DNA from: a virus
Lineage: Duplodnaviria; Heunggongvirae; Uroviricota; Caudoviricetes
Length of the DNA: 64,000 nucleotides
Reading direction: 5' to 3' (one strand)
IMG/VR virus record: IMGVR_UViG_2609459792_000007
Shown: positions 5,547 to 15,705 of the stretch, one piece after another
Position numbering within the stretch: position 1 is the stretch's first letter
Layout: the number at the start of each line of letters is the position of its first letter
Made by a program: the position numbers and the translations under genes
The notes under the pieces: generated by a model
What the model saw: the letters and a program-made list of their open reading frames with translations, nothing else
Told to the model about the DNA's origin: nothing
Database searches by the model: none

Positions 5547-8500
5547 ATGTGGTACAGGGAAGGTACTATCACATTTACACAGGGTAGTAATACTCTGGTT
5601 GGGGTTGGGACAGCCTGGAACGTAACAGCTAATGGTGTGTTGCCGGGGATGATCGTCATTGGCCCCGACAATAAGCTGTATGAGATCAAGCGCGTAACAA
5701 GCGATACGAACATTGTTCTCTCAGAACCTTATACCGGTGAAACTCAGTCTGAAGTTCCGTGCCGAATCATTACTACCTATGAAGGCGACTTAACACAGTT
5801 TAGCGCGCGCTTTACCGCGCTAATGTCGCGTATGTCGGCTGATTCCAAGTCCATGCGTAGTTGGTTGACTGCTCTGGATGAGGTGACAATCGAGCGTGAA
5901 GACGGTACAGAAGTGACCGTTAAGCCGCTGATGCAGATCGTCAACGAGCACAACGAAAACGTTGAGTGGTATAAAAATAACACTGACGCGATTGATGCCG
6001 CTGGTGACAAAGCTCGTGAGGCGGCGGCCAGTGCTGCCGCAGCAGCAGAAAGCGCCAATACCGCTGGAGAAAAAGCATCTCAAGCGTCTCAAAGTGCATC
6101 CGCTGCGGCATCCTCACAAAGTGCCGCAAGTGCGAGTGCAACTGCTGCGAAAAAATCTGAAACGAACGCAGAATCAGCATATCTATCGGCAGCAGAATCA
6201 GCGTCTGTAGCGTCGACCAAAGCATCGGAGGCAGCAACATCTGCGTCCAGTGCCTCTGCATCTAAGGATGCAGCCAAAGCATCAGAGACTAACGCTTCAT
6301 CGAGTGCAAACGCGGCTGCATCATTTGCAACAGAAGCTGAAAATTCGTCTAAGGCAGCAAAAGCGTCAGAGACAAACGCAAAAGCATCTGAAACGGCAGC
6401 CGGGCAGAGTGCATCGTCTGCAAACAGTTCGAAATCTGCGGCAGAAGCGTCAGCAAGCGCAGCCTCAGCAAGTGCGGATAGTGCTTCATCAAGTGCAACT
6501 GCGGCAGGAAAATCTGCGGAAAGCGCGTCGTCATCAGCGACAACAGCTACCGCAAAAGCGACTGAGGCGACGAATCAGGCTACAGCTGCTAAAAATTCAG
6601 CATCGGCAGCAAAATCCTCTGAAACAAATGCAAAGGCTTCTGAAGATAATGCCGCTTCCTCTAAAGAGGCAGCTGCTGAATCTGCAAGTTCTGCGTCTGC
6701 ATCAGCCACCTCGGCATCTGCTTCAAAAGATGAGGCGACCAAGCAGGCATCAGCTGCGAAGGGGAGTGCTTCAACGGCATCCACGAAAGCAACAGAGGCG
6801 GCAGGTAGTGCGACGGCTGCATCTCAGAGCAAAGCTGCTGCTGAATCCGCTGCGACCCGTGCAGAAGCTGCCGCTGATCGTGCTGAAGAGATCGCCGGTG
6901 CAGTTGCGATGGAAGACGCAAGCCTTACCACCAAAGGTGTTGTGAAACTTAGCAGTGCTGTCGATAGCACCAGTGAATCGCTGGCCGCAACGCCAAAGGC
7001 AGTTAAAGCAGTCAATGACAATGCGAACAGCAGGGTGCCATCTAACCGAAAAATTAACGGGAAAGCACTGACTGCGGATATCACATTAACGCCGAAAGAT
7101 ATTGGTACTTTAAATTCAATAACGATGTCTTTCTCTGGCGGGGCCGGGTGGTTCAAACTGGCTACTGTTACAATGCCACAAGCGAGTTCCATCGTTTACA
7201 TCGCATTGATTGGTGGCGCTGGTTACAACGTCGGCTCCCCACATCAGGCAGGCATTTCAGAACTGGTTCTACGAGCAGGCAATGGAAACCCCAAAGGGAT
7301 TACAGGTGCTTTGTGGAAGCGTACAGCTGTCGGATTAACGAATTTCGCCTGGATCAACACATCCGGCGATACATATGATATTTACGTTGAAATTGGCAAT
7401 TATGCGACGAGTGTAAATATCCATTGGGATTGTACTGCAAATGCGTCAGTTTCTATTTATACATCGCCAACATATTCAGCGAGTAAGCCTTCCAGCGTTA
7501 CCGATGGTGTTGTTTATACGTTGTATAGCACACATCAGAAACCGACGCCGTTAGATATTGGAGCACTGCCAACAACCGGAGGAACAGTTTCAGGTCCGTT
7601 GTCTGTTACTGGTGGGATCACCGGAACATTAAATGGTAATGCAAGTACAGCAACGAAATTGCAGACGGCAAGATCTATCGGTGGAGTTGTTTTCGACGGT
7701 TCTGCAAATATTAACCTTCCAGGTGTAAACACTACGGGTAATCAGAACACCACTGGTAATGCTGCAACTGCTACAAAACTTCAGACGGCACGCACAATTG
7801 GCGGGGTAGCATTTGATGGCAGTGTCAATATCGACCTGCCGGGCGTGAATAAAGCAGGCAATCAGAGCACTACCGGCAATGCTGCAACCGCTACAAAACT
7901 ACAGACAGCGCGTACAATCAACGGTGTTAAGTTTGATGGTTCTGCGGACATAACGCTGACTCCTGCGAACCTTGACGTATACAGCAAAAGCGAAATAGAC
8001 AATAAAAAAGGGATGAGAAAATACACTTTTTCAGCGCCTGCAAATGCAGTAAGCGGTAAGTGGTATCCTATAGTCTTTCGCCGATCTGGAGGCAGTACCG
8101 ATGAATTAGCCTCACGAGTTGTGATAACTACTTATTCCTCAGCTGGCGGATACGCCATGAATAATTGTGAATTTAATGGGTTTGTTATGCCTGGCGGTTG
8201 GTCTGATCGCGGTTCATATGCGGCTGGTTTTTTCTCAATATATTCTACTGCTGAGCGAGCTATACACTCGATTATTTCAAGTGTGAAAGATGACGATTTG
8301 TGTAGTGTATTTTACGTTGAAGCCAGAGCATTCCCTATCAAGATATTTGCTGAGGAGGGCTTGAACGTAATTGTTCCAACGGCTGATTATGCAGTTGGTC
8401 AAACCACTTATAAGTGGGGGGCAACTGATCCTTTATCAGAAAGTACGAATGCACAGATAATTTTGGACTTTAAAAATGGACGAGGTTATTACTGTTCACA

Positions 8501-9704
8501 TCCATTTATTTCAAGTCTTTCAGGAAATGCTGCTACAGCAACGAAATTGCAGACTGCAAGAACTATCGGCGGCGTGGCCTTCGATGGATCTGCGAACATA
8601 AATTTGCCTGGTGTAAACACGGCAGGTAATCAGAATACAACGGGCAACGCGGCTACTGCTACGAAGTTGCAAACAGCGAGAAACATCAATGGTGTTAAGT
8701 TTGATGGCTCAGGCGATATCAACATTAATACATTGGTATCTCGTGGCCGAGTTACGGCGTTAAGCGGCTCTACTCAAGGCACTGCTGGCATTCAAATGTA
8801 CGAGGCGTACAACAATAGTTATCCGACCACGTATGGCAACGTATTGCACATGAAAGGTGCGAGTGCTGCTGGTGAGGGCGAGTTGCTTATTGGCTGGAGT
8901 GGTACGAGCGGTGCACATGCGCCGGTTTTCATTCGCTCCCGAAGAGATACCACTGATGCGGCATGGTCAGCGTGGGCGCAGGTATATACCGCTAAGGATT
9001 CAATCCCTGGTGTGAATACAACCGGTAATCAGAACACTACTGGTAATGCCGCAACCGCCACAAAATTGCAGACAGCAAGGAAAATTGCTGGTGTGGCGTT
9101 TGATGGCTCTGCCGATATTACTTTGACTGCGGCTAACCTTAATGCTTACACGAAAACAGAGGTAACAAACCTTCTAAGTTCCTATGCAAGCAGATCATCA
9201 CTGACAGGCTATAGTGGCAACCTGGATATTATTGCTGAAACACTGGTTGTCAAATCAGGCGGTAGTGGAGGGTTTGCTATATGGGATATTGGCACAACTA
9301 CTAGCGGTGCCAATATGTACATTGATCCAAACCCAGGTATCAATACAGTTTGGCGTTCAACATCTTCAAGGCGCTATAAAAAGGATATTGAAACATTACA
9401 AGATCGATATGCTGATGAACTTTTGTCATTAAGACCTGTTTGGTATCGTTCAATTTGTCGAGGTGACCGAAAGGATTGGGGGTATTACGGCCTTATTGCT
9501 GAAGAGGTTGGTGAGATTGCCCCGCAATATGTCCATTGGCGTGAACCAACAAATAATGATTCTCCAGAAGATATTTCCTCCAATGGTATGGTCGCTGAAG
9601 GAGTGATGTATGAACGTTTGGTTGTACCACTCATTCATCATATTCAGCAATTGACCAAAAGGGTTGAGGAGCTTGAAAAGAAGTTAAATTCACCTAAAGA
9701 ATAA
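5547..9704 (+). CDS. side tail fibre protein (Stf-like N-terminus, repeat shaft, C-terminal intramolecular chaperone-like domain)
   Basis: 1385 aa; Ala/Ser-rich region ending ..GSASTASTKATEAAGSA..SQSKAAAESAA..KGVVKLSSAVDSTSESLAATPKAVKAV resembles lambda Stf N-terminus as recalled; five or more copies of NAATATKLQTAR..GV.FDGS..I.LPGVNT.GNQNTTG; C-terminal about 130 aa resemble the self-cleaving chaperone domains of tailspikes and L-shaped fibres. Confidence 0.8.
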   Translation: MWYREGTITFTQGSNTLVGVGTAWNVTANGVLPGMIVIGPDNKLYEIKRVTSDTNIVLSEPYTGETQSEVPCRIITTYEGDLTQFSARFTALMSRMSADSKSMRSWLTALDEVTIEREDGTEVTVKPLMQIVNEHNENVEWYKNNTDAIDAAGDKAREAAASAAAAAESANTAGEKASQASQSASAAASSQSAASASATAAKKSETNAESAYLSAAESASVASTKASEAATSASSASASKDAAKASETNASSSANAAASFATEAENSSKAAKASETNAKASETAAGQSASSANSSKSAAEASASAASASADSASSSATAAGKSAESASSSATTATAKATEATNQATAAKNSASAAKSSETNAKASEDNAASSKEAAAESASSASASATSASASKDEATKQASAAKGSASTASTKATEAAGSATAASQSKAAAESAATRAEAAADRAEEIAGAVAMEDASLTTKGVVKLSSAVDSTSESLAATPKAVKAVNDNANSRVPSNRKINGKALTADITLTPKDIGTLNSITMSFSGGAGWFKLATVTMPQASSIVYIALIGGAGYNVGSPHQAGISELVLRAGNGNPKGITGALWKRTAVGLTNFAWINTSGDTYDIYVEIGNYATSVNIHWDCTANASVSIYTSPTYSASKPSSVTDGVVYTLYSTHQKPTPLDIGALPTTGGTVSGPLSVTGGITGTLNGNASTATKLQTARSIGGVVFDGSANINLPGVNTTGNQNTTGNAATATKLQTARTIGGVAFDGSVNIDLPGVNKAGNQSTTGNAATATKLQTARTINGVKFDGSADITLTPANLDVYSKSEIDNKKGMRKYTFSAPANAVSGKWYPIVFRRSGGSTDELASRVVITTYSSAGGYAMNNCEFNGFVMPGGWSDRGSYAAGFFSIYSTAERAIHSIISSVKDDDLCSVFYVEARAFPIKIFAEEGLNVIVPTADYAVGQTTYKWGATDPLSESTNAQIILDFKNGRGYYCSHPFISSLSGNAATATKLQTARTIGGVAFDGSANINLPGVNTAGNQNTTGNAATATKLQTARNINGVKFDGSGDININTLVSRGRVTALSGSTQGTAGIQMYEAYNNSYPTTYGNVLHMKGASAAGEGELLIGWSGTSGAHAPVFIRSRRDTTDAAWSAWAQVYTAKDSIPGVNTTGNQNTTGNAATATKLQTARKIAGVAFDGSADITLTAANLNAYTKTEVTNLLSSYASRSSLTGYSGNLDIIAETLVVKSGGSGGFAIWDIGTTTSGANMYIDPNPGINTVWRSTSSRRYKKDIETLQDRYADELLSLRPVWYRSICRGDRKDWGYYGLIAEEVGEIAPQYVHWREPTNNDSPEDISSNGMVAEGVMYERLVVPLIHHIQQLTKRVEELEKKLNSPKE

Positions 9705-9716
9705 ACAACTTCAATC

Positions 9717-9739
9717 GGGGCTGGAACTAAACCAGCCCC
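9717..9739 (+). terminator. hairpin downstream of tail fibre gene
   Basis: GGGGCTGG-AACTAAA-CCAGCCCC; weak U-tract follows. Confidence 0.4.
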
Positions 9740-9764
9740 TGCTTAAAAGTATAAGGATATATTT

Positions 9765-10019
9765 ATGAGCTATGGTGCACAGGTTTGGTCGCCATCAAGA
9801 CAGGAGATGGTCGATGCGTTGGCCCCTGTTTATTACCTCGATTATTTTACTCCCTCTGGTTCTGGAAGTAGAACATATGAGGTTGAGGCGGGATTGGGAA
9901 TCGACTATTACATAATGGACGTAACCAATGGGAAATACACAAGTCTTACGGTTTCTGGAAATACCATTTCATGGTCTGGAGCTAGTGGCAATTTAAACAT
10001 ATTGGTTTTTCAAAAATAA
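9765..10019 (+). CDS. hypothetical protein
   Basis: 84-aa ORF after the tail fibre gene; AT-rich; no motif recognised. Confidence 0.45.
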   Translation: MSYGAQVWSPSRQEMVDALAPVYYLDYFTPSGSGSRTYEVEAGLGIDYYIMDVTNGKYTSLTVSGNTISWSGASGNLNILVFQK

Positions 10020-10627
10020 TGTACGGAAGCAAGATATATCGATCTGACGGGAAGGTCTGGATGTCTCCTTCTTTGTCTCCTATCGTTTTTCAGAGAAAGC
10101 AGGTTGTTTCTTTGTCTGGCGGGACAGAGTTTAACACCCAAATATCTCCAGATCGTTCACCGATGATTTTTGTTGCCTATTCGAAAGCTGTTTCATTAAT
10201 AGCCAACAGAATAGTGCGTAACAACCAGGTGATTTACAGTTTCGGAGGTCAGGGTAGCGACTCTAGTGCCACGATATACGTATTTTCGAAAGGTATAGCC
10301 AAAAAAGAAACTTGGGGCATGAGTTTTTTCAATGCGCGAGGAGAGGAGATCTATAATACGGCAAATATCCCACTTTCATTTACCTTTCTTAATAATACGG
10401 AGTGGAACAGTTCTGGAGGGCATGTTTTTGATTACCCGCCAGCGATAATCCCAACATATGCAAATGTGTTCGCGGTTCCAGTACCGGGCGGGGCCATGAC
10501 AATGGTTTATGGATATGCGGCATATGGAAATACTGTTAGTTCCATATTCGTAAACCAACTTAATGGCGGCCATAGTTTTAGCGTAAATGGCAGAGTACCG
10601 GTAATAAATAGAAATCTGTATAACTGA
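10019..10627 (+). CDS. hypothetical protein
   Basis: 202-aa ORF, start overlaps previous stop; no motif recognised. Confidence 0.5.
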   Translation: MYGSKIYRSDGKVWMSPSLSPIVFQRKQVVSLSGGTEFNTQISPDRSPMIFVAYSKAVSLIANRIVRNNQVIYSFGGQGSDSSATIYVFSKGIAKKETWGMSFFNARGEEIYNTANIPLSFTFLNNTEWNSSGGHVFDYPPAIIPTYANVFAVPVPGGAMTMVYGYAAYGNTVSSIFVNQLNGGHSFSVNGRVPVINRNLYN

Positions 10628-10637
10628 TGAGTAAACG

Positions 10638-10868
10638 ATGAAAAGATTATTTCTAACAATAGCTGTTGTTCTCTCTCTTACTGGCTGTCAGAAATTGCCG
10701 ACACCCATATGTTATGGTGAGGCTATCATTGGTGGACAGGAGACAGTCATACCTATATATGCTGTTAAAAAGGTTAACGGCTATACCTTATACAAAGCGG
10801 GTAGCATCTATAACTGGCGATGGGTTGGAGTAGGTGCTTTCTCATCAGTGCGTTGCAATGCTGAATGA
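10638..10868 (+). CDS. small lipoprotein
   Basis: 76 aa; N-terminus MKRLFLTIAVVLSLTGCQ is a signal peptide with lipobox L-T-G-C. Confidence 0.55.
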   Translation: MKRLFLTIAVVLSLTGCQKLPTPICYGEAIIGGQETVIPIYAVKKVNGYTLYKAGSIYNWRWVGVGAFSSVRCNAE

Positions 10869-10937
10869 TAAGTAAGTACACACCTACAACAAAAGGGTGA
10901 AATGTGATATAAATCCGCCATCCCGATTTGACTTTTC

Positions 10938-11273
10938 ATGGAGGAAAACATGTCGAACGAGATGGCGGGCGTTACAACAGAGCAAGTTGAGCGTATTGCC
11001 GCGATCGTTGCTCGGGAGGTTGTTGGCAAATTAGGTAAAGAGCTACGTGAAGAAATTGGCCAGGAGGTCAATGATCAGCTGAAAACCTACTTTGGTGATA
11101 TGACCCCGGCGCAACATAGTATTCAACACTCCAATCTGGACAAACTCCTTAACCGGTTAGATTCCATCTCCAGTGGGTTCTTTGGCGGCATTGTTTCTAA
11201 AATAACGTCGTTCATTATTACCGCACTGCTTTTGGGGTTAGCCGCGTATGGCGTAAAAAATGGACTGCAATAA
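10938..11273 (+). CDS. hypothetical membrane protein (holin candidate by position)
   Basis: 111 aa with one C-terminal hydrophobic helix (ITSFIITALLLGLAAYGV); sits at the head of the putative lysis cassette. Confidence 0.4.
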   Translation: MEENMSNEMAGVTTEQVERIAAIVAREVVGKLGKELREEIGQEVNDQLKTYFGDMTPAQHSIQHSNLDKLLNRLDSISSGFFGGIVSKITSFIITALLLGLAAYGVKNGLQ

Positions 11274-11286
11274 CAGGAGATCAAGG

Positions 11287-11979
11287 ATGAAGACTCCGAG
11301 AGGCATTCGTAATAATAACCCCGGTAATCTTGATAAAGGATCACCGTGGCAAGGTCTGGTTGCGAATCCAGACGAACCGCGTTTTTGCACGTTTAAAGAC
11401 CCTGTTTGGGGGATTCGTGCGCTGGCGGTGACTCTAATTACCTACCACGACAAACGTCGCGCAAAAGACGGCTCAAGTATCGATACCATTCGTGAAGTTA
11501 TTGAACGTTGGGCACCGCCGAATGAAAACAACACTGACGCCTACATTAATGAGGTGTCTAAAGCCGTTGGTGTAACCGCAGACATGATCATCGATCTGCA
11601 TGATTACGACATCCTTCGACCTTTGGTTGAGGCAATCATTCGCCACGAGAATGGCCGGGGTCCGCTAAAAACGCTGAACACCTGGTATGCGGCAGAAGTT
11701 ATTGAGGAAGGTCTGCGTCGAGCTGGCGTTGTTAAGCCGGTGAAAACCGTGAAGGCTGTTCCTGTAACTAAAGAAACAGCAGGCGCAACTGTTACAGCAG
11801 GTATTGGTCTGGCGCAACTGGCCGATGTTATGCCGCAGGTTTCCGCTGCTATGGATAAGGCACAAGGCCATATCTCTAGCGGGGATACAGTACGCATCAT
11901 CTTCGGTATTGCCACTATTGTTGTGGCCGGATTCATTGCCTGGTCGCAGGTAAGAAAACACCAGAAAGGGATGGTCTAA
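11287..11979 (+). CDS. hypothetical protein, endolysin candidate by position only
   Basis: ORF-track start is 11260; ATG at 11287 (MKTPRGIRNNNPGN..) has an AGGAG RBS and avoids overlap. C-terminal hydrophobic helix. Lies between holin-like gene and Rz/Rz1-like pair; catalytic family not recognised. Confidence 0.4.
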   Translation: MKTPRGIRNNNPGNLDKGSPWQGLVANPDEPRFCTFKDPVWGIRALAVTLITYHDKRRAKDGSSIDTIREVIERWAPPNENNTDAYINEVSKAVGVTADMIIDLHDYDILRPLVEAIIRHENGRGPLKTLNTWYAAEVIEEGLRRAGVVKPVKTVKAVPVTKETAGATVTAGIGLAQLADVMPQVSAAMDKAQGHISSGDTVRIIFGIATIVVAGFIAWSQVRKHQKGMV

Positions 11980-11980
11980 T

Positions 11981-12232
11981 ATGCTAGGCAGCCTGATGAC
12001 AAAGCTAAAAGTTGCTTTGATTACGCTGGCTGCCGTTCTTTTCGTTCTGGTCGGCGCTTACACGATGGGCGGGAATGCAGCACGACGAGCAATGGAAGAG
12101 AAGGCAAAACAGGAAGACAGAAAACGACTTCAAAGCACAGTGGACGTCAAAAATGAAACACTTGATGAGTTACGGCGCAAGGATGCTTCTTCTGTTCATC
12201 ATGAGTTGCACAATAAGTGGTTGCGTGATTAA
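11981..12232 (+). CDS. Rz-like i-spanin (short)
   Basis: 83 aa; N-terminal TM helix (LKVALITLAAVLFVLVGAY) then charged helical region; overlaps an out-of-frame lipoprotein ORF. Confidence 0.45.
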   Translation: MLGSLMTKLKVALITLAAVLFVLVGAYTMGGNAARRAMEEKAKQEDRKRLQSTVDVKNETLDELRRKDASSVHHELHNKWLRD

Positions 12233-12383
12233 GCCTCAACCCGCTGGTGTGCTTTTCTGCGATGCGGCTACACCGCTATACATCAGCCGTGATGATCTCA
12301 TGACCGAAGAGACTGAAAGAGAGGTGCTTTTTCACAATATGATAGGGGAGCGATTGTGTGGATGGGGCAGAAAAGTACCATAA
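12153..12383 (+). CDS. Rz1-like o-spanin lipoprotein
   Basis: Internal Met of the 12075..12383 ORF gives MKHLMSYGARMLLLFIMSCTISGC (signal peptide plus lipobox I-S-G-C); starts inside and extends beyond the Rz-like gene in another frame. Confidence 0.5.
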   Translation: MKHLMSYGARMLLLFIMSCTISGCVIKPQPAGVLFCDAATPLYISRDDLMTEETEREVLFHNMIGERLCGWGRKVP

Positions 12384-12560
12384 CAGAAGAGGAGTTTTCT
12401 AACATAAAATTTGCATATTATTAGAGCACAAGGTAGATTTGGCACATGGATGTCAAGTAAATCATCCCTTGCATTAATGCTGCGACGCATACTCGTAGCC
12501 TCTAAACCCTGACAAGGGTCGCCGCTATGACATTAAGTTAATACCGGCTAAGGTGGACAC

Positions 12561-12944
12561 ATGCTGAACGAAAAACGTTCTATACAAACAATTCGCGATT
12601 GCACGAGTGTTATCGCAACTCATGTGCTGAATAAGCGCAAACTTGAGGTGCGTAAACTTAACAACGATGCGACTGCGCCAAAAGACACTCGCTTCATCGT
12701 AACTTTCAAAGACGATGTTGAGAATGCTGGTGCCAGTGTAAAACCGTTGGCTGAAGCGATTTTCCTGAACGATCGTGTTCGTTTCATTGTGAAGCCAGCA
12801 AAACAATACCCTGAATTAGCACGGTTTAGTGACCAATTCTCTGAAATTATTGAGAGTGCAATTCGCCGCTTTCTTAATACTCATGGTAGCATTGTCAGCA
12901 ATACAACTGCTGATGGTACTGCTCTAAGATGGCACCTACACTAG
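12561..12944 (+). CDS. hypothetical protein
   Basis: 127-aa ORF; no motif recognised. Confidence 0.45.
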   Translation: MLNEKRSIQTIRDCTSVIATHVLNKRKLEVRKLNNDATAPKDTRFIVTFKDDVENAGASVKPLAEAIFLNDRVRFIVKPAKQYPELARFSDQFSEIIESAIRRFLNTHGSIVSNTTADGTALRWHLH

Positions 12945-13681
12945 AACGCACATACTCTAAAAATCTTTATGAGTTTCCTCACCGTGGGGAAACTCGCGTT
13001 TCACGTTTTGGCTACCTCATCAACGAAGCATCGCTTTTCAAAATATCTGAAATAACCATTATCGAGCCTGATGATGATATCTGTCTGTATATCCTGATGG
13101 AGAAAGTTGGAGCACGAGATCAGGGTGAACTGATGGACTTCATTCTGGACAGAGGCGAAGATGGAATGTCTGATTCGGACATTATTCAAGCAATTCTGCG
13201 TTCCGACATGCTCGATCAGAGCAGAAACACGATAGCAGGCAGAATTGCATTGCGTGAATACACATTCATCGAGGATGGGGTAGAGATTGACTGCTATCAG
13301 ATTGCAGGTGTTGAAACAGAAAGAGCAATAAGGCAAAGGGGACTGTGCAACCTCACGTATCGCTTCCTCCTTCATTGGTACGAACATCTTGTCTGTGATT
13401 ACAATCAGACCATTCCTGGCGCAAAAATCTGGGCCGGTCCATTAATGCGAACAGGTGATGTAAGAATTTACAACGCAAAAACTGAGACGTTCGAGGATGT
13501 GTTAGGCGAATATGGGATGGGAAAAGAAACCGGCTTTTTGCCGTGGAACAGAGGATTGTTACTTGATCCAGAATTAAGCTCTTGGTTTCCAAATAAGGTG
13601 CAAGTTAACGTTGAGAAATTTATCGTACTTATCATCTCCCGCAAAACAAGAACCCCAGTTGGTTTATATCTAAAAGATTAA
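12929..13681 (+). CDS. hypothetical protein
   Basis: 250-aa ORF; no motif recognised. Confidence 0.5.
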   Translation: MAPTLERTYSKNLYEFPHRGETRVSRFGYLINEASLFKISEITIIEPDDDICLYILMEKVGARDQGELMDFILDRGEDGMSDSDIIQAILRSDMLDQSRNTIAGRIALREYTFIEDGVEIDCYQIAGVETERAIRQRGLCNLTYRFLLHWYEHLVCDYNQTIPGAKIWAGPLMRTGDVRIYNAKTETFEDVLGEYGMGKETGFLPWNRGLLLDPELSSWFPNKVQVNVEKFIVLIISRKTRTPVGLYLKD

Positions 13682-14937: not shown

Positions 14938-15705
14938 TTATGCCGCGCTAACACTATGTTCAGTCCTAACCACCCCAACCTTCACAAAAGGGCTACCGTA
15001 GCTTGGTGGCTTCTTGATTAATTTGCCTACATACAGTTTTCTAATATGCTCATCGGCTATTCTGCCAACAAATTCATATCGTTTTGTGTCGGGGCCAAGA
15101 GCTATATCCCTTGTAAAGTACTGCTGAGAACCGGCTTTGACCCAGCATTCAATCTGATAAACTTCCATTATTAGCCCACCATATGTAGCGTAGGCATATT
15201 TGAGATTCTCGTCTCTTGGAACCTTTGCCCATACGCCACGCGTAGCTTCATATAATGCCAGAGCGGACATTCCTGATTTGTAGGTGCTGTTTAGCAGGAA
15301 GGCAAGACCGGCGTGCTCAGGAGCAATTTCAGTTTCCTCTTGCAGCACTAAGTGATGGTAGGCGTCCAGTGATATTCTGCCCATCATGGAACCACTTCCT
15401 CGAACCTTATTCGTAAGCTCTCCGACCCCCATAAGGTCGATGCATGTCGCCTCAACAAGTTTGGCTGTGGTTTCATCCATACCATGACGAAGAATATCTA
15501 TGCCTAATTTTTTATTAGCCAAAAGTTCTTTGATCCGCATGGATTTGGGAGAGTCATCGGGATACTTGATGTGATCGAGACAACGAGTCGATTTGCCTTT
15601 TCCTATGTAAAACGGTCTTTTCATCTTGTCTTCTGTATCATAGAGACAGTAAACATAGTATTTAGCCTTATCCAAGGATCTCGCGTATACCGATAAATCG
15701 TCCAT
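14938..15705 (-). CDS. GIY-YIG domain endonuclease with uncharacterised C-terminal domain
   Basis: 255 aa; N-terminus YYVYCLYD..PFYIGKGKSTRCLDH fits the GIY-YIG motif; one of only three minus-strand genes in the window. Confidence 0.7.
   Translation of the reverse strand: MDDLSVYARSLDKAKYYVYCLYDTEDKMKRPFYIGKGKSTRCLDHIKYPDDSPKSMRIKELLANKKLGIDILRHGMDETTAKLVEATCIDLMGVGELTNKVRGSGSMMGRISLDAYHHLVLQEETEIAPEHAGLAFLLNSTYKSGMSALALYEATRGVWAKVPRDENLKYAYATYGGLIMEVYQIECWVKAGSQQYFTRDIALGPDTKRYEFVGRIADEHIRKLYVGKLIKKPPSYGSPFVKVGVVRTEHSVSAA

What the first reader, a model, noticed from the sequence alone, without database searches (positions are those of the whole stretch)
10938..12383. Lysis cassette with an unusually short Rz and an Rz1 that extends past it
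The Rz-like ORF is only 83 aa and the lipoprotein Rz1-like ORF starts inside it and runs 150 bp beyond its stop (overlapped rather than embedded). The putative endolysin in front has a C-terminal hydrophobic helix and no catalytic motif I can name. Either the cassette is atypical, or a frameshift or misassembly has truncated Rz.
Basis: partly seen in the sequence, partly recalled or inferred. Interest (0 to 1): 0.35.

Follow-up and report, generated by a model that had tools for sequence, protein, structure and literature searches.

The report
Ordinary SSU5-type phage-plasmid lysis cassette
This is the normal, intact four-gene host-lysis cassette of an SSU5-like phage-plasmid: its short Rz, its Rz1 that overlaps and runs past it, and its membrane-anchored endolysin are all conserved and already described, so nothing is broken or new.

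Summary
There is a holin-like gene (10950-11273), an endolysin (11287-11979), an 83-aa Rz/i-spanin (11981-12232), and an Rz1/o-spanin lipoprotein in the +1 frame (12153-12383) that ends 151 nt past the Rz stop.

The anomaly reading fails. Rz is exactly 83 aa, with no indels, in all 10 relatives analysed (two further near-identical records, 12 in all, also have 83 aa) and in 60 of 70 database clusters. Both spanin genes show purifying selection (pN/pS 0.27 and 0.21). The published SpaninDB already lists phage SSU5 as an "overlapped" pair of 83 and 76 aa. Chi, Enc34, JS26 and a Pseudomonas phage have the same short i-spanins (79-89 aa).

The endolysin is an Enc34/M4Lys-type (PHA02564) enzyme. 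It matches PDB 7q47 at E = 2.6e-54 (59% identity in the structure-based alignment). The catalytic Glu and its Trp/Tyr partners are invariant, and it has the family's known C-terminal membrane anchor.

The window is an E. coli SSU5-like phage-plasmid, and 784 PLSDB plasmids carry this cassette.

The one weakly understood part is the "holin". It is a tail-anchored protein of an uncharacterised family (phrog_5093). Distant members of that family also sit at the head of lysis cassettes that have other endolysins.

Verdict: real, ordinary, already known.

The parts
10950..11273 (+). Holin-like gene, 107 aa (an alternative upstream ATG at 10938 gives 111 aa). It has a helical, charged N-terminal part, a conserved YFGDMTPAQHSIQH motif and a single C-terminal TMD (residues about 81-99). 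Family phrog_5093, function unknown.
   Evidence: ORF and sequence. phrog_5093 at 8e-69. No Pfam, NCBIfam or PDB hit. Hydropathy. Annotated 'Holin' or 'putative holin' in Cyrano and SSU5. Family and contexts.
11287..11979 (+). Enc34/M4Lys-type (PHA02564) endolysin, 230 aa. It has an N-terminal all-helical glycosidase domain (residues 1 to about 151), a linker with a weakly hydrophobic helix (about 165-192), and a C-terminal TMD (about 201-222).
   Evidence: PDB 7q47 at E = 2.6e-54. Foldseek to 7q47 gives target-normalised TM-score 0.82 and 59% identity. phrog_873 endolysin at 3e-88. 2010 homologues found. AF2 model.
11647..11649 (+). Codon of the predicted catalytic Glu121 (motif IIRHENG), equivalent to Enc34 Glu131. 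The partner residues are Trp75 and Tyr86, equivalent to Enc34 Trp79 and Tyr95.
   Evidence: Alignment to 7q47. Residue roles from PMC8943055. All three residues are invariant in 110 aligned homologues and in alignment A1.
11887..11952 (+). C-terminal transmembrane helix of the endolysin (residues about 201-222, VRIIFGIATIVVAGFIAWSQV).
   Evidence: KD 19-residue maximum 2.07. AF2 helix at 199-226. In the homologue M4Lys this domain is required for holin- and Sec-independent lysis (PMC7143992).
11981..12232 (+). i-spanin (Rz-like), 83 aa. N-terminal TMD at residues about 11-29, then a periplasmic domain of about 50 aa that is mostly helical and has no Cys, ending ...KWLRD. Its start lies 1 nt after the endolysin stop.
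   Evidence: phrog_1026 at 2e-23, profile length 85. 83 aa in 12 of 12 relatives and in 60 of 70 clusters. SpaninDB entry for SSU5: 83 aa, periplasmic domain 50 aa, 72% helix.
12153..12383 (+). o-spanin (Rz1-like) outer-membrane lipoprotein, 76 aa, in the +1 frame relative to Rz. The signal peptide is 12153-12221, the lipobox is TISG|C with the Cys codon at 12222-12224, and the mature protein is 53 aa with two further Cys. An alternative start at 12165 corresponds to the SpaninDB call for SSU5.
   Evidence: phrog_1275 at 9e-23. 41% identity to the Chi o-spanin, E = 1e-18. ATG and lipobox conserved in 10 of 10 relatives and pN/pS 0.21. SpaninDB places the SSU5 o-spanin in the Chi family.
12153..12232 (+). 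The 80-nt overlap between the Rz 3' end and the Rz1 5' end. It encodes essentially only the Rz1 signal peptide in the second frame.
   Evidence: Sequence. No indels in the 10 relatives analysed; pN/pS is 0.29 in the Rz frame and 0.59 in the Rz1 frame.

Best explanation
Window 10938-12383 is the intact late-lysis cassette of an SSU5-like phage-plasmid of E. coli. It has four translationally close-packed genes on the + strand.

1. A 107-aa tail-anchored membrane protein, conventionally annotated as the holin (family phrog_5093, function untested).
2. An Enc34/M4Lys-type (PHA02564) endolysin. Its N-terminal all-helical, lysozyme-alpha-lobe-like domain cleaves peptidoglycan glycan bonds using Glu121. 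Its C-terminal transmembrane segment ties it to the inner membrane.
3. A minimal 83-aa i-spanin anchored in the inner membrane.
4. A 76-aa o-spanin lipoprotein. Its signal peptide is encoded in the +1 frame inside the end of the i-spanin gene, and its mature part is encoded downstream. This is the standard 'overlapped' architecture.

Inferred mechanism: late in induction the endolysin reaches the murein in a way that depends on its own TMD, with timing presumably set by the upstream membrane protein. Once the murein is degraded, the i-spanin/o-spanin complex, covalently stabilised through the o-spanin cysteines, fuses the inner and outer membranes and releases virions.

Shown here: gene identities, conservation of length and frame, catalytic residues, and membrane and lipoprotein signals. 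Taken from the literature on homologues: muralytic activity, TMD-dependent holin-independent lysis, and the spanin fusion model. Inferred only: the role of the 107-aa protein, and that this short spanin pair is functional.
For: **Identity of the element**
- 95% DNA identity to Escherichia phage PhiR41_1, 94% to Cyrano and 82% to Salmonella phage SSU5.
- 99.7% identity to the E. coli plasmid NZ_CP113488.1. 784 PLSDB plasmids, 749 of them non-mobilizable, carry the cassette.
- A ParA-type ATPase and a DnaB-like helicase lie downstream, and a tail fibre lies upstream.

**Endolysin**
- PDB 7q47 at E = 2.6e-54. Foldseek gives target-normalised TM-score 0.82.
- W75, Y86 and E121 are invariant in 110 homologues.
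- Activity, structure and TMD are described for Enc34 (PMC8943055) and M4Lys (PMC7143992).
- 182 phage records encode the full EAD-plus-TMD architecture.

**Spanins**
- PHROG spanin families at 2e-23 and 9e-23.
- Identical 252-nt Rz, the +1-frame Rz1 and the lipobox in all relatives.
- Pooled pN/pS is 0.27 for Rz-only codons and 0.21 for Rz1-only codons.
- 60 of 70 clusters are 83 aa.
- Chi gp39 is 84 aa, Enc34 ORF40 84 aa, JS26 89 aa and vB_Pae-SS2019XI 79 aa. Each has an overlapped lipoprotein ORF.
- SpaninDB lists SSU5 as overlapped, 83/76 aa, frame +1.

**Holin-like gene**
- Distant relatives head lysis cassettes that have other endolysins.
Against: - No spanin of the SSU5/Chi type, and no member of phrog_5093, has been tested experimentally as far as the searched literature shows. 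SpaninDB entries are bioinformatic.
- The combined periplasmic length of the pair is small, about 50 + 53 residues against about 130 + 40 in lambda. Whether they bridge the periplasm in the lambda manner is assumed.
- The i-spanin has no periplasmic Cys.
- How an N-terminal catalytic domain crosses the membrane with a C-terminal anchor is unknown (stated as open in PMC8943055).
- The 107-aa protein lacks the charged C-terminal tail typical of holins and matches no Pfam holin family.
- The o-spanin start is ambiguous: 12153, conserved in all relatives, or 12165.
Confidence: 0.92

Rival explanations
1. A frameshift, sequencing error or misassembly truncated a longer, lambda-sized Rz. The downstream 'Rz1' reading frame is really the displaced 3' part of Rz.
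For: Only the raw impression that 83 aa is short next to the 153 aa of lambda Rz, and that the next ORF continues in another frame.
Against: - The same 252-nt ORF, with identical start and stop positions and no indels over 384 nt, occurs in the 10 independently sequenced relatives analysed. They come from Escherichia, Salmonella, Klebsiella, Cronobacter and Raoultella and are 65-98% identical; an Enterobacter plasmid and a near-identical E. coli plasmid also have the 83-aa Rz.
- 60 of 70 clusters are 83 aa.
- The downstream frame begins with a conserved Met-Lys/Arg, a hydrophobic stretch and a lipobox Cys. That is a lipoprotein signal, not a continuation of a coiled coil.
- The i-spanin ends in a KW(L/M/V)R(D/H) motif, related forms of which (KWMRRKD, DWSRD, KWMRD) end the Chi, Pseudomonas phage and JS26 i-spanins.
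- SpaninDB records 83 aa for SSU5.
Confidence: 0.01
2. The 11287-11979 product is a virion-associated (structural or ejection) peptidoglycan hydrolase rather than the lysis endolysin, so the block is not a true lysis cassette.
For: The same catalytic domain occurs inside virion proteins: phrog_7182 tail injection transglycosylase, phrog_2276 tape measure and phrog_992 head protein, the gp16-type internal virion proteins of K1F-like phages, and proteins of DMS3-like phages annotated endolysin, capsid and scaffold protein or hypothetical, and the core protein Gp29 in PDB 9vvp. Some database names say 'virion protein' or 'structural protein P5'.
Against: - Here the domain is a stand-alone 230-aa protein with a C-terminal TMD.
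- It sits between a small membrane protein and a spanin pair. This is the same layout as Enc34 ORF38-41 and Chi gp37-40.
- Full-length homologues lyse E. coli from within (M4Lys; Enc34 ORF39 is toxic when full length).
- The best PHROG is 'endolysin' at 3e-88, against about 1e-20 for the virion families.
Confidence: 0.03
3. The cassette is a lysis cassette, but the 107-aa phrog_5093 protein is not the hole-forming holin. It would be an accessory or regulatory tail-anchored protein (antiholin-like or releasin-like). Membrane passage would be achieved by the endolysin's own TMD.
For: - M4Lys lyses cells without its neighbouring ORF_37 and without Sec.
- The phrog_5093 protein has one TMD at the extreme C-terminus, an 8-residue tail and no Pfam holin match.
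- It is not homologous to the Chi or Enc34 protein at the same position.
- In 2 of 4 distant loci (L097, L098) a separate multi-TMD protein sits between it and the endolysin, matching the holin family phrog_8226 in L097 (its close L098 counterpart was not scanned). In L095 a 102-aa hydrophobic protein follows it.
- It is more conserved (85-100% aa identity among SSU5-like phages) than the endolysin or Rz. That fits a protein with specific partners.
Against: - No other holin candidate exists in or next to the window cassette.
- L096 shows the family directly in front of a Peptidase_M15 endolysin with no other upstream membrane protein.
- The holin-independence of M4Lys was seen only under T7 overexpression, and the authors could not exclude a timing role for the neighbouring gene.
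- Single-TMD holins exist (T4 T, established knowledge).
Confidence: 0.3

Closest known systems
Lysis cassette of Salmonella phage SSU5 (SSU5_026-030) and of Escherichia phages Cyrano and PhiR41_1
   Same: Same four genes in the same order, with the same lengths (324, 693, 252 and about 231 nt) and the same +1 overlap. DNA identity is 82-95%. The SSU5 spanins are catalogued in SpaninDB as overlapped, 83 and 76 aa.
   Different: Only point substitutions and a variable o-spanin C-terminal tail, which ends 136-163 nt past the Rz stop in relatives and 151 nt here. Many GenBank records miss or truncate the o-spanin call: Cyrano has 39 aa, and most RefSeq plasmids have none.
Enc34-type endolysins: Hafnia phage Enc34 ORF39 (PDB 7Q47), Salmonella phage BSPM4 M4Lys, Siskin and Chi gp38 (protein family PHA02564 plus a C-terminal TMD)
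   Same: Catalytic domain fold and residues (Glu, Trp, Tyr), a linker with a weakly hydrophobic helix, and a distal strong TMD. The position between a small membrane protein and overlapped short spanins is also the same.
   Different: About 55-59% identity. The window protein lacks two short insertions present in Enc34. The upstream 'holin' is a different, non-homologous protein: Chi gp37 has an N-proximal TMD and a long C-terminal domain, while here the TMD is C-terminal.
Overlapped two-component spanins (prototype P2 LysB/LysC; Chi o-spanin family of Kongari et al. 2018)
   Same: An i-spanin with an N-terminal TMD. An o-spanin lipoprotein that starts inside the i-spanin gene and ends beyond it. 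The o-spanin is homologous to that of Chi (41% identity, 1e-18). The cysteines are in the o-spanin only, as in T4 PseT.2/PseT.3.
   Different: It is among the shortest i-spanins catalogued. The periplasmic domain is about 50 aa, against about 130 in lambda. Only a few entries seen in the SpaninDB tables are shorter (UAB_phi78, 69 aa total; pYD38_B and Bk, periplasmic 45-47 aa). The i-spanin was a singleton family in 2018 and is only weakly similar to Chi gp39 (27% identity, 8e-4).
Lambda S-R-Rz-Rz1 cassette
   Same: Same functional logic and gene order: membrane protein, muralytic enzyme, then inner-membrane and outer-membrane spanin subunits.
   Different: In lambda, Rz1 is fully embedded in Rz, Rz is 153 aa, R is a soluble transglycosylase, and S is a three-TMD holin. 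None of the four proteins is homologous to its lambda counterpart by the searches run.

Membership tests
Two-component spanin, overlapped architecture (Summer 2007 / Kongari 2018 definition) | The i-spanin is a small type II inner-membrane protein with a single N-terminal TMD and a periplasmic, largely helical C-terminal domain. | tested here: met
   KD maximum 2.38 at residues 11-29. phrog_1026 Rz-like spanin at 2e-23. The SpaninDB secondary-structure table gives the SSU5 periplasmic domain as 50 aa, 72% helix.
Two-component spanin, overlapped architecture (Summer 2007 / Kongari 2018 definition) | The o-spanin has a lipoprotein signal with a lipobox Cys and no inner-membrane retention signal (no Asp at +2). 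| tested here: met
   MKHLMSYGARMLLLFIMSCTISG|C-V-I. The lipobox I-S-G-C fits [LVI][ASTVI][GAS]C and Val is at +2. The Cys is conserved in 10 of 10 relatives. phrog_1275 at 9e-23. No dedicated LipoP or SignalP run was available.
Two-component spanin, overlapped architecture (Summer 2007 / Kongari 2018 definition) | The o-spanin gene starts inside the i-spanin gene in another frame and ends beyond its stop. | tested here: met
   The start at 12153 lies inside 11981-12232, the frame is +1, and the end at 12383 is 151 nt past the Rz stop. The same holds in all relatives and in the SpaninDB entry for SSU5.
Two-component spanin, overlapped architecture (Summer 2007 / Kongari 2018 definition) | At least one periplasmic cysteine is available for intermolecular disulfide bonds. 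| tested here: met
   The mature o-spanin has Cys at positions 13 and 46 in addition to the lipidated Cys1. Both are conserved in 10 of 10 relatives. The i-spanin has none, as in T4 PseT.3.
Two-component spanin, overlapped architecture (Summer 2007 / Kongari 2018 definition) | Function: required for outer-membrane disruption; complements lambda Rz/Rz1 defects. | not testable with these tools
   No experimental report for SSU5- or Chi-type spanins was found.
Enc34-type endolysin (PHA02564 EAD plus C-terminal TMD) | Sequence and fold membership of the catalytic domain. | tested here: met
   phmmer against 7q47 gives E = 2.6e-54 over residues 3-151. The AF2 model against 7q47_B gives target-normalised TM-score 0.82 and 59% identity.
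Enc34-type endolysin (PHA02564 EAD plus C-terminal TMD) | The catalytic Glu (Enc34 Glu131) with Trp79 and Tyr95. | tested here: met
   Glu121, Trp75 and Tyr86 align to them and are invariant in 110 homologues and in alignment A1. Their roles come from PMC8943055.
Enc34-type endolysin (PHA02564 EAD plus C-terminal TMD) | A C-terminal transmembrane domain: a proximal weakly hydrophobic or amphipathic helix plus a distal strong TM helix. | tested here: met
   The distal helix at 201-222 has KD 2.07, and the proximal region at 165-189 has KD about 1.0. The AF2 model has helices at 178-192 and 199-226, but pLDDT is below 50 for 157-185 and 191-196.
Enc34-type endolysin (PHA02564 EAD plus C-terminal TMD) | Muralytic activity and TMD-dependent lysis from within. 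| not testable with these tools
   Shown only for the homologues Enc34 ORF39 and M4Lys.
Holin | A small protein with at least one TMD, encoded next to the endolysin. | tested here: met
   107 aa, with a TMD at residues 81-99. Its stop codon lies 13 nt upstream of the endolysin start.
Holin | Membership of a described holin family, with the typical highly charged hydrophilic C-terminal tail. | tested here: not met
   No Pfam or NCBIfam family matches. phrog_5093 is 'unknown function'. The C-terminal tail after the TMD is only about 8 residues (YGVKNGLQ) with one charge. It is not homologous to Chi gp37.
Holin | Lethal, timed permeabilisation of the inner membrane. | not testable with these tools
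   No experimental data were found for SSU5-type proteins. Association with lysis cassettes that have three different endolysin types supports a lysis role only in general terms.

The most novel reading that the evidence does not exclude
The protein annotated as the holin (10950-11273, phrog_5093) may not be a classical holin. It could be the founding member of an uncharacterised family of tail-anchored lysis-cassette proteins, with an invariant G...H...H motif just before a C-terminal TMD. In SSU5-like elements it would control when the similarly tail-anchored Enc34-type endolysin gets its catalytic domain across, or off, the inner membrane. In other phages it would work alongside a separate multi-TMD holin. 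If so, the SSU5 cassette would be a tractable E. coli system for the open question of how C-terminally anchored endolysins reach the murein.
Probability: 0.2. Interest if true: 0.45.

Novelty: already known. Interest (0 to 1): 0.1.

Why it matters
It matters little as a discovery. The cassette, its overlapped short spanins and its C-terminally anchored endolysin are all in the literature and in hundreds of sequenced phage-plasmids.

Its practical value is for annotation. Most RefSeq and GenBank records of these plasmids label all four genes 'hypothetical protein' and omit or truncate the o-spanin. Correct coordinates and names can therefore be transferred.

Two open questions attach to the family rather than to this window. 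The first is how a tail-anchored endolysin reaches the periplasm. The second is what the phrog_5093 'holin' does. SSU5-like elements that replicate in E. coli K-12 would be a convenient system for both.

Tried and rejected
- **Pfam and NCBIfam on the four proteins.** Nothing reached significance.
- **Promoter and terminator scan of 9600-13000.** It found fewer sites than the shuffled controls, so it gave no information on transcription units.
- **The search for related loci with the broad holin-family alignment.** It failed because no stretch was conserved enough. With the narrower alignment it returned 80 loci that were all 92-100% identical SSU5-like elements, which said nothing about distant contexts. 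An alignment of distant members only was needed, and it gave just 4 loci, so the context inference rests on a small sample.
- **PDB search with the holin-like protein.** No hit, even at E = 10.
- **Pfam and PADLOC on the two ORFs downstream of the cassette (12561-13681).** No hits.
- **Rz1 as 'separated' through a later start.** I considered this and rejected it. The lipobox Cys codon (12222-12224) is itself upstream of the Rz stop, so any functional signal peptide must be encoded inside Rz.
- **The Pae87 lead.** From memory I first thought 7q47 might be the Pseudomonas JG004 lysin Pae87. The paper search showed 7Q47 is the Enc34 endolysin.
- **Caveat on pN/pS.** The values are pooled over non-independent sequence pairs and should be read qualitatively.
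Full report
**1. What is in the sequence**

On the + strand between 10938 and 12383 there are four tightly packed ORFs.

- **Holin-like ORF.** It runs from 10938 (111 aa) or, more likely, 10950 (107 aa) to 11273. A GGAGGA Shine-Dalgarno sits at 10940-10945, and relatives annotate the 324-nt version.
- **Endolysin.** 11287-11979 (230 aa), with an AGGAG motif 7 nt upstream of the ATG.
- **Rz-like ORF.** 11981-12232 (83 aa), starting 1 nt after the endolysin stop.
- **Rz1-like ORF.** It lies in the +1 frame and ends at 12383. The frame is open from 12022 and its first ATG is at 12075. The ATG conserved in relatives is at 12153, which gives 76 aa.

The Rz1 product begins MKHLMSYGARMLLLFIMSCTISG|CVI. 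That is a basic n-region, a hydrophobic core, a lipobox, and Val at +2. The Cys codon is at 12222-12224, just before the Rz stop at 12230-12232. The 80-nt overlap therefore encodes essentially only the Rz1 signal peptide, and the mature 53-aa lipoprotein is encoded downstream of Rz.

Hydropathy shows four hydrophobic segments:

| Protein | Segment (residues) |
|---|---|
| Rz | N-terminal TMD, 11-29 |
| Endolysin | strong C-terminal TMD, about 201-222 |
| 107-aa protein | single C-terminal TMD, 81-99 |
| Rz1 | signal-peptide core |

**2. What replicon this is**

- The region is 95% identical to Escherichia phage PhiR41_1, 94% to phage Cyrano and 82% to Salmonella phage SSU5.
- It is 99.7% identical to an E. 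coli plasmid, NZ_CP113488.1.
- 784 PLSDB plasmids carry the cassette. They come from Klebsiella, Escherichia, Enterobacter, Salmonella, Citrobacter, Cronobacter and others, and nearly all are about 105-120 kb and non-mobilizable. 706 of them cover at least 80% of the query.
- Upstream is a 1385-aa tail fibre with a Peptidase_S74 chaperone domain. Downstream are a ParA-type ATPase and a DnaB-like helicase.

The window is an SSU5-like phage-plasmid.

**3. Is Rz truncated? No**

- In Cyrano, SSU5, PhiR41_1 and eight plasmids, including pHCM2 of S. Typhi and pKPHS1 of K. pneumoniae, the Rz ORF is annotated at, or can be read at, exactly 252 nt.
- I extracted the 384 nt from the Rz start to the conserved end of Rz1 from ten of these sequences, which are 65-98% identical at protein level. 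There is not a single indel.
- In all ten, Rz starts and stops at the same positions, and Rz1 is in the +1 frame with a conserved initiator Met followed by Lys or Arg and a conserved lipobox Cys.
- Pooled Nei-Gojobori estimates are shown below. Both genes are under purifying selection, and the signal-peptide frame is the more relaxed one in the overlap, as expected.

| Segment | pN/pS |
|---|---|
| Rz-only codons | 0.27 |
| Rz1-only codons | 0.21 |
| Overlap, Rz frame | 0.29 |
| Overlap, Rz1 frame | 0.59 |

- A search of 5.8 billion proteins found 70 clusters of Rz homologues. 60 are exactly 83 aa. The others are fragments on short contigs or alternative start calls.
- The PHROG profile that Rz hits (phrog_1026, 'Rz-like spanin', 2e-23) is only 85 positions long.

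**4. Is the arrangement atypical? Only relative to lambda**

- Kongari et al. 2018 (PMC6139136) define three standard architectures for two-component spanins: embedded (lambda), overlapped (P2) and separated (T4).
- Their SpaninDB includes SSU5 itself: 'ovl', i-spanin 252 nt / 83 aa, o-spanin 76 aa, 68-nt overlap, frame +1. The periplasmic domains are 50 aa (72% helix) and 57 aa.
- They place the SSU5 o-spanin in the Chi family (Chi, SSU5, Enc34, FSL_SP-030 and others) and the i-spanin as a singleton.
- My comparisons agree. The window o-spanin is 41% identical to the Chi o-spanin (E = 1e-18). The i-spanins are only weakly similar (27%, 8e-4).
- The i-spanins still share length and a C-terminal KW(L/M)R(D/K) ending.

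| Phage | i-spanin length |
|---|---|
| Chi (gp39) | 84 aa |
| Enc34 (ORF40) | 84 aa |
| JS26 | 89 aa |
| vB_Pae-SS2019XI | 79 aa |

- Each of these has an overlapped lipoprotein ORF with an SGC lipobox.
- 83 aa is at the short end of catalogued i-spanins but is not unique. UAB_phi78 is 69 aa, and the periplasmic domains of pYD38_B and Bk are 45-47 aa.
- The cysteine pattern, none in the i-spanin and two in the mature o-spanin, matches the T4 pattern discussed in that paper.

**5. The endolysin**

- Pfam and NCBIfam are silent. The PDB sequence search gives 7q47 at E = 2.6e-54 over residues 3-151.
- 7Q47 is the catalytic domain of the Hafnia phage Enc34 endolysin (Cernooka et al. 2022, PMC8943055).
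- An AlphaFold2 model built from 61 homologues has pLDDT above 85-90 across most of residues 41-150. It superposes on 7q47 with target-normalised TM-score 0.82.
- The paper identifies Glu131 as the catalytic residue, with Trp79 and Tyr95 as conserved partners shared with GH73 and GH23 enzymes. It argues for a glycosidase, probably N-acetylglucosaminidase, activity.
- After correcting the one-residue offset of the PDB chain, these align to Glu121 (codon 11647-11649, motif IIRHENG), Trp75 and Tyr86 of the window protein. All three are invariant in 110 homologues.
- The paper also states that the two-domain architecture, an N-terminal EAD plus a C-terminal two-helix TMD, is the hallmark of this endolysin type. 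It was first noted in Salmonella phage Siskin. The paper adds that Enc34's neighbours are a small membrane protein and an Rz/Rz1 pair that 'overlap as in phage P2'.
- Bai et al. 2020 (PMC7143992) showed that the homologue M4Lys lyses E. coli without its neighbouring gene and without Sec. The TMD is required, and the TMD alone does not lyse.
- tblastn finds the full-length architecture in 182 phage records, including Chi-like phages, JS26, JC01, E21 and Aeromonas phages.
- The catalytic domain alone also occurs inside virion proteins such as K1F-type gp16. This explains stray 'virion protein' or 'structural protein P5' names. It does not apply to this stand-alone, membrane-anchored copy sitting between lysis genes.

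**6. The 'holin'**

This is the only part that is not well understood.

- It hits phrog_5093 ('unknown function', 8e-69) and nothing in Pfam, NCBIfam or the PDB.
- It is not homologous to Chi gp37.
- Among sequenced phages it is confined to SSU5-like elements, at 85-100% identity.
- An exhaustive phmmer scan of 1.84 billion representatives found 56 relatives. The 16 I aligned are 100-140 aa and share the architecture: a charged helical N-part, then a motif (Y/H)FG(D/E)M.P..H..QH.R...LL..LD..S.NF.G with invariant Gly49, His56 and His60, then one C-terminal TMD.
- Four distant members located in IMG/VR all sit at the head of lysis-like blocks that have different partners:
  - L096 is followed directly by a Peptidase_M15_3 endolysin (PF08291, 2e-15).
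  - L097 and L098 are each followed by a multi-TMD protein (the L097 one matches the holin family phrog_8226, 1e-5), a 213-aa endolysin (L097: phrog_669, 2e-22), and a long ORF with an embedded lipoprotein ORF (the L098 one matches a Rz-like spanin family weakly, phrog_214, 7e-4).
  - L095 is followed by a 102-aa hydrophobic protein.
- This supports a lysis role for the family regardless of endolysin type. It leaves open whether the protein forms the hole or is an accessory. The sample is small.

**7. Mechanism**

*Shown here:* gene identities, signals, catalytic residues and conservation.

*From the literature on homologues:* muralytic activity of the EAD, TMD-dependent lysis from within, and the model in which spanin complexes fuse the inner and outer membranes once the murein is removed.

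*Inferred:*
- The 107-aa protein sets the timing.
- The endolysin is held at the inner membrane by its C-terminal helix until triggering.
- The minimal spanin pair, about 50 helical residues plus about 53 largely non-helical residues, is long enough to bridge the periplasm.
- Disulfide-linked o-spanin dimers substitute for the missing i-spanin cysteines.

How the N-terminal catalytic domain crosses the membrane is explicitly unresolved in the field.

**8. Verdict**

The identification as a lysis cassette is right. Novelty: already known. Interest: low (0.1).

The residual lead is the uncharacterised phrog_5093 family and, more generally, the export problem of tail-anchored endolysins. Neither is specific to this window.

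Noticed in passing
window 10950-11273; loci L095 (2405-2797), L096 (2351-2776), L097 (2423-2797), L098 (2306-2761): The 'holin' belongs to an uncharacterised family (phrog_5093; 56 representatives among 1.84 billion proteins). It has an invariant G/H/H motif just before a C-terminal TMD. Distant members head lysis cassettes that carry different endolysins (Peptidase_M15_3; phrog_669). In two loci a separate multi-TMD protein sits next to them (matching a holin family, phrog_8226, in L097), so the family may be an accessory lysis protein rather than the hole former.
   Followed up: partly
window 9765-10868: Three small genes lie between the tail fibre and the lysis cassette: an 84-aa phrog_557 'outer membrane protein', a 202-aa phrog_425 'membrane associated protein', and a 76-aa Cor-like superinfection-exclusion lipoprotein (phrog_1119, 8e-30; lipobox LTGC). 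SSU5 has the same trio. Cyrano, PhiR41_1 and several plasmids have other genes in this slot, so it is a variable moron position.
   Followed up: partly
window 5547-9704: A 1385-aa tail fibre with a very long Ala/Ser/Thr-rich low-complexity N-terminal half, several copies of a '...NTTGNAATATKLQTAR.I.GV.FDGS..I...' repeat, and a C-terminal Peptidase_S74 intramolecular chaperone domain (PF13884, 5e-6).
   Followed up: partly
window 12561-13681: Two ORFs (127 and 250 aa) between the lysis cassette and parA have no Pfam or PADLOC hits. Cyrano has a KacT-type GNAT toxin with its antitoxin in the same slot, and several plasmids have a GNAT acetyltransferase gene there. PhiR41_1 has two hypothetical genes of about the same sizes. 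This looks like a variable cargo hotspot.
   Followed up: partly
window 11287-11740 (catalytic domain) versus phage records: The PHA02564 catalytic domain is widespread outside endolysins. It forms the N-terminus of gp16-type internal virion proteins of K1F/Kayfunavirus-like podophages. It also occurs in DMS3/JBD-like Pseudomonas phages, in a non-tailed vibriophage (NO16-like), in Microviridae, and in core protein Gp29 of PDB 9vvp. These database names vary widely (virion protein, structural protein P5, capsid and scaffold, exotransglycosylase).
   Followed up: no
loci L004-L011 (RefSeq/PLSDB plasmids) and L001 (Cyrano): Annotation gap. In most plasmid records all four cassette genes are 'hypothetical protein'. 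The o-spanin is either not called or called from an internal start that removes the lipoprotein signal (39 aa in Cyrano; 51-55 aa ORFs in pHCM2, pKPHS1 and Raoultella).
   Followed up: yes
window 14938-15705 (- strand): A 255-aa ORF with a LEM-3-like GIY-YIG nuclease domain (PF22945, 5.5e-7) lies between the partition genes and the DnaB-like helicase, on the opposite strand to its neighbours.
   Followed up: no
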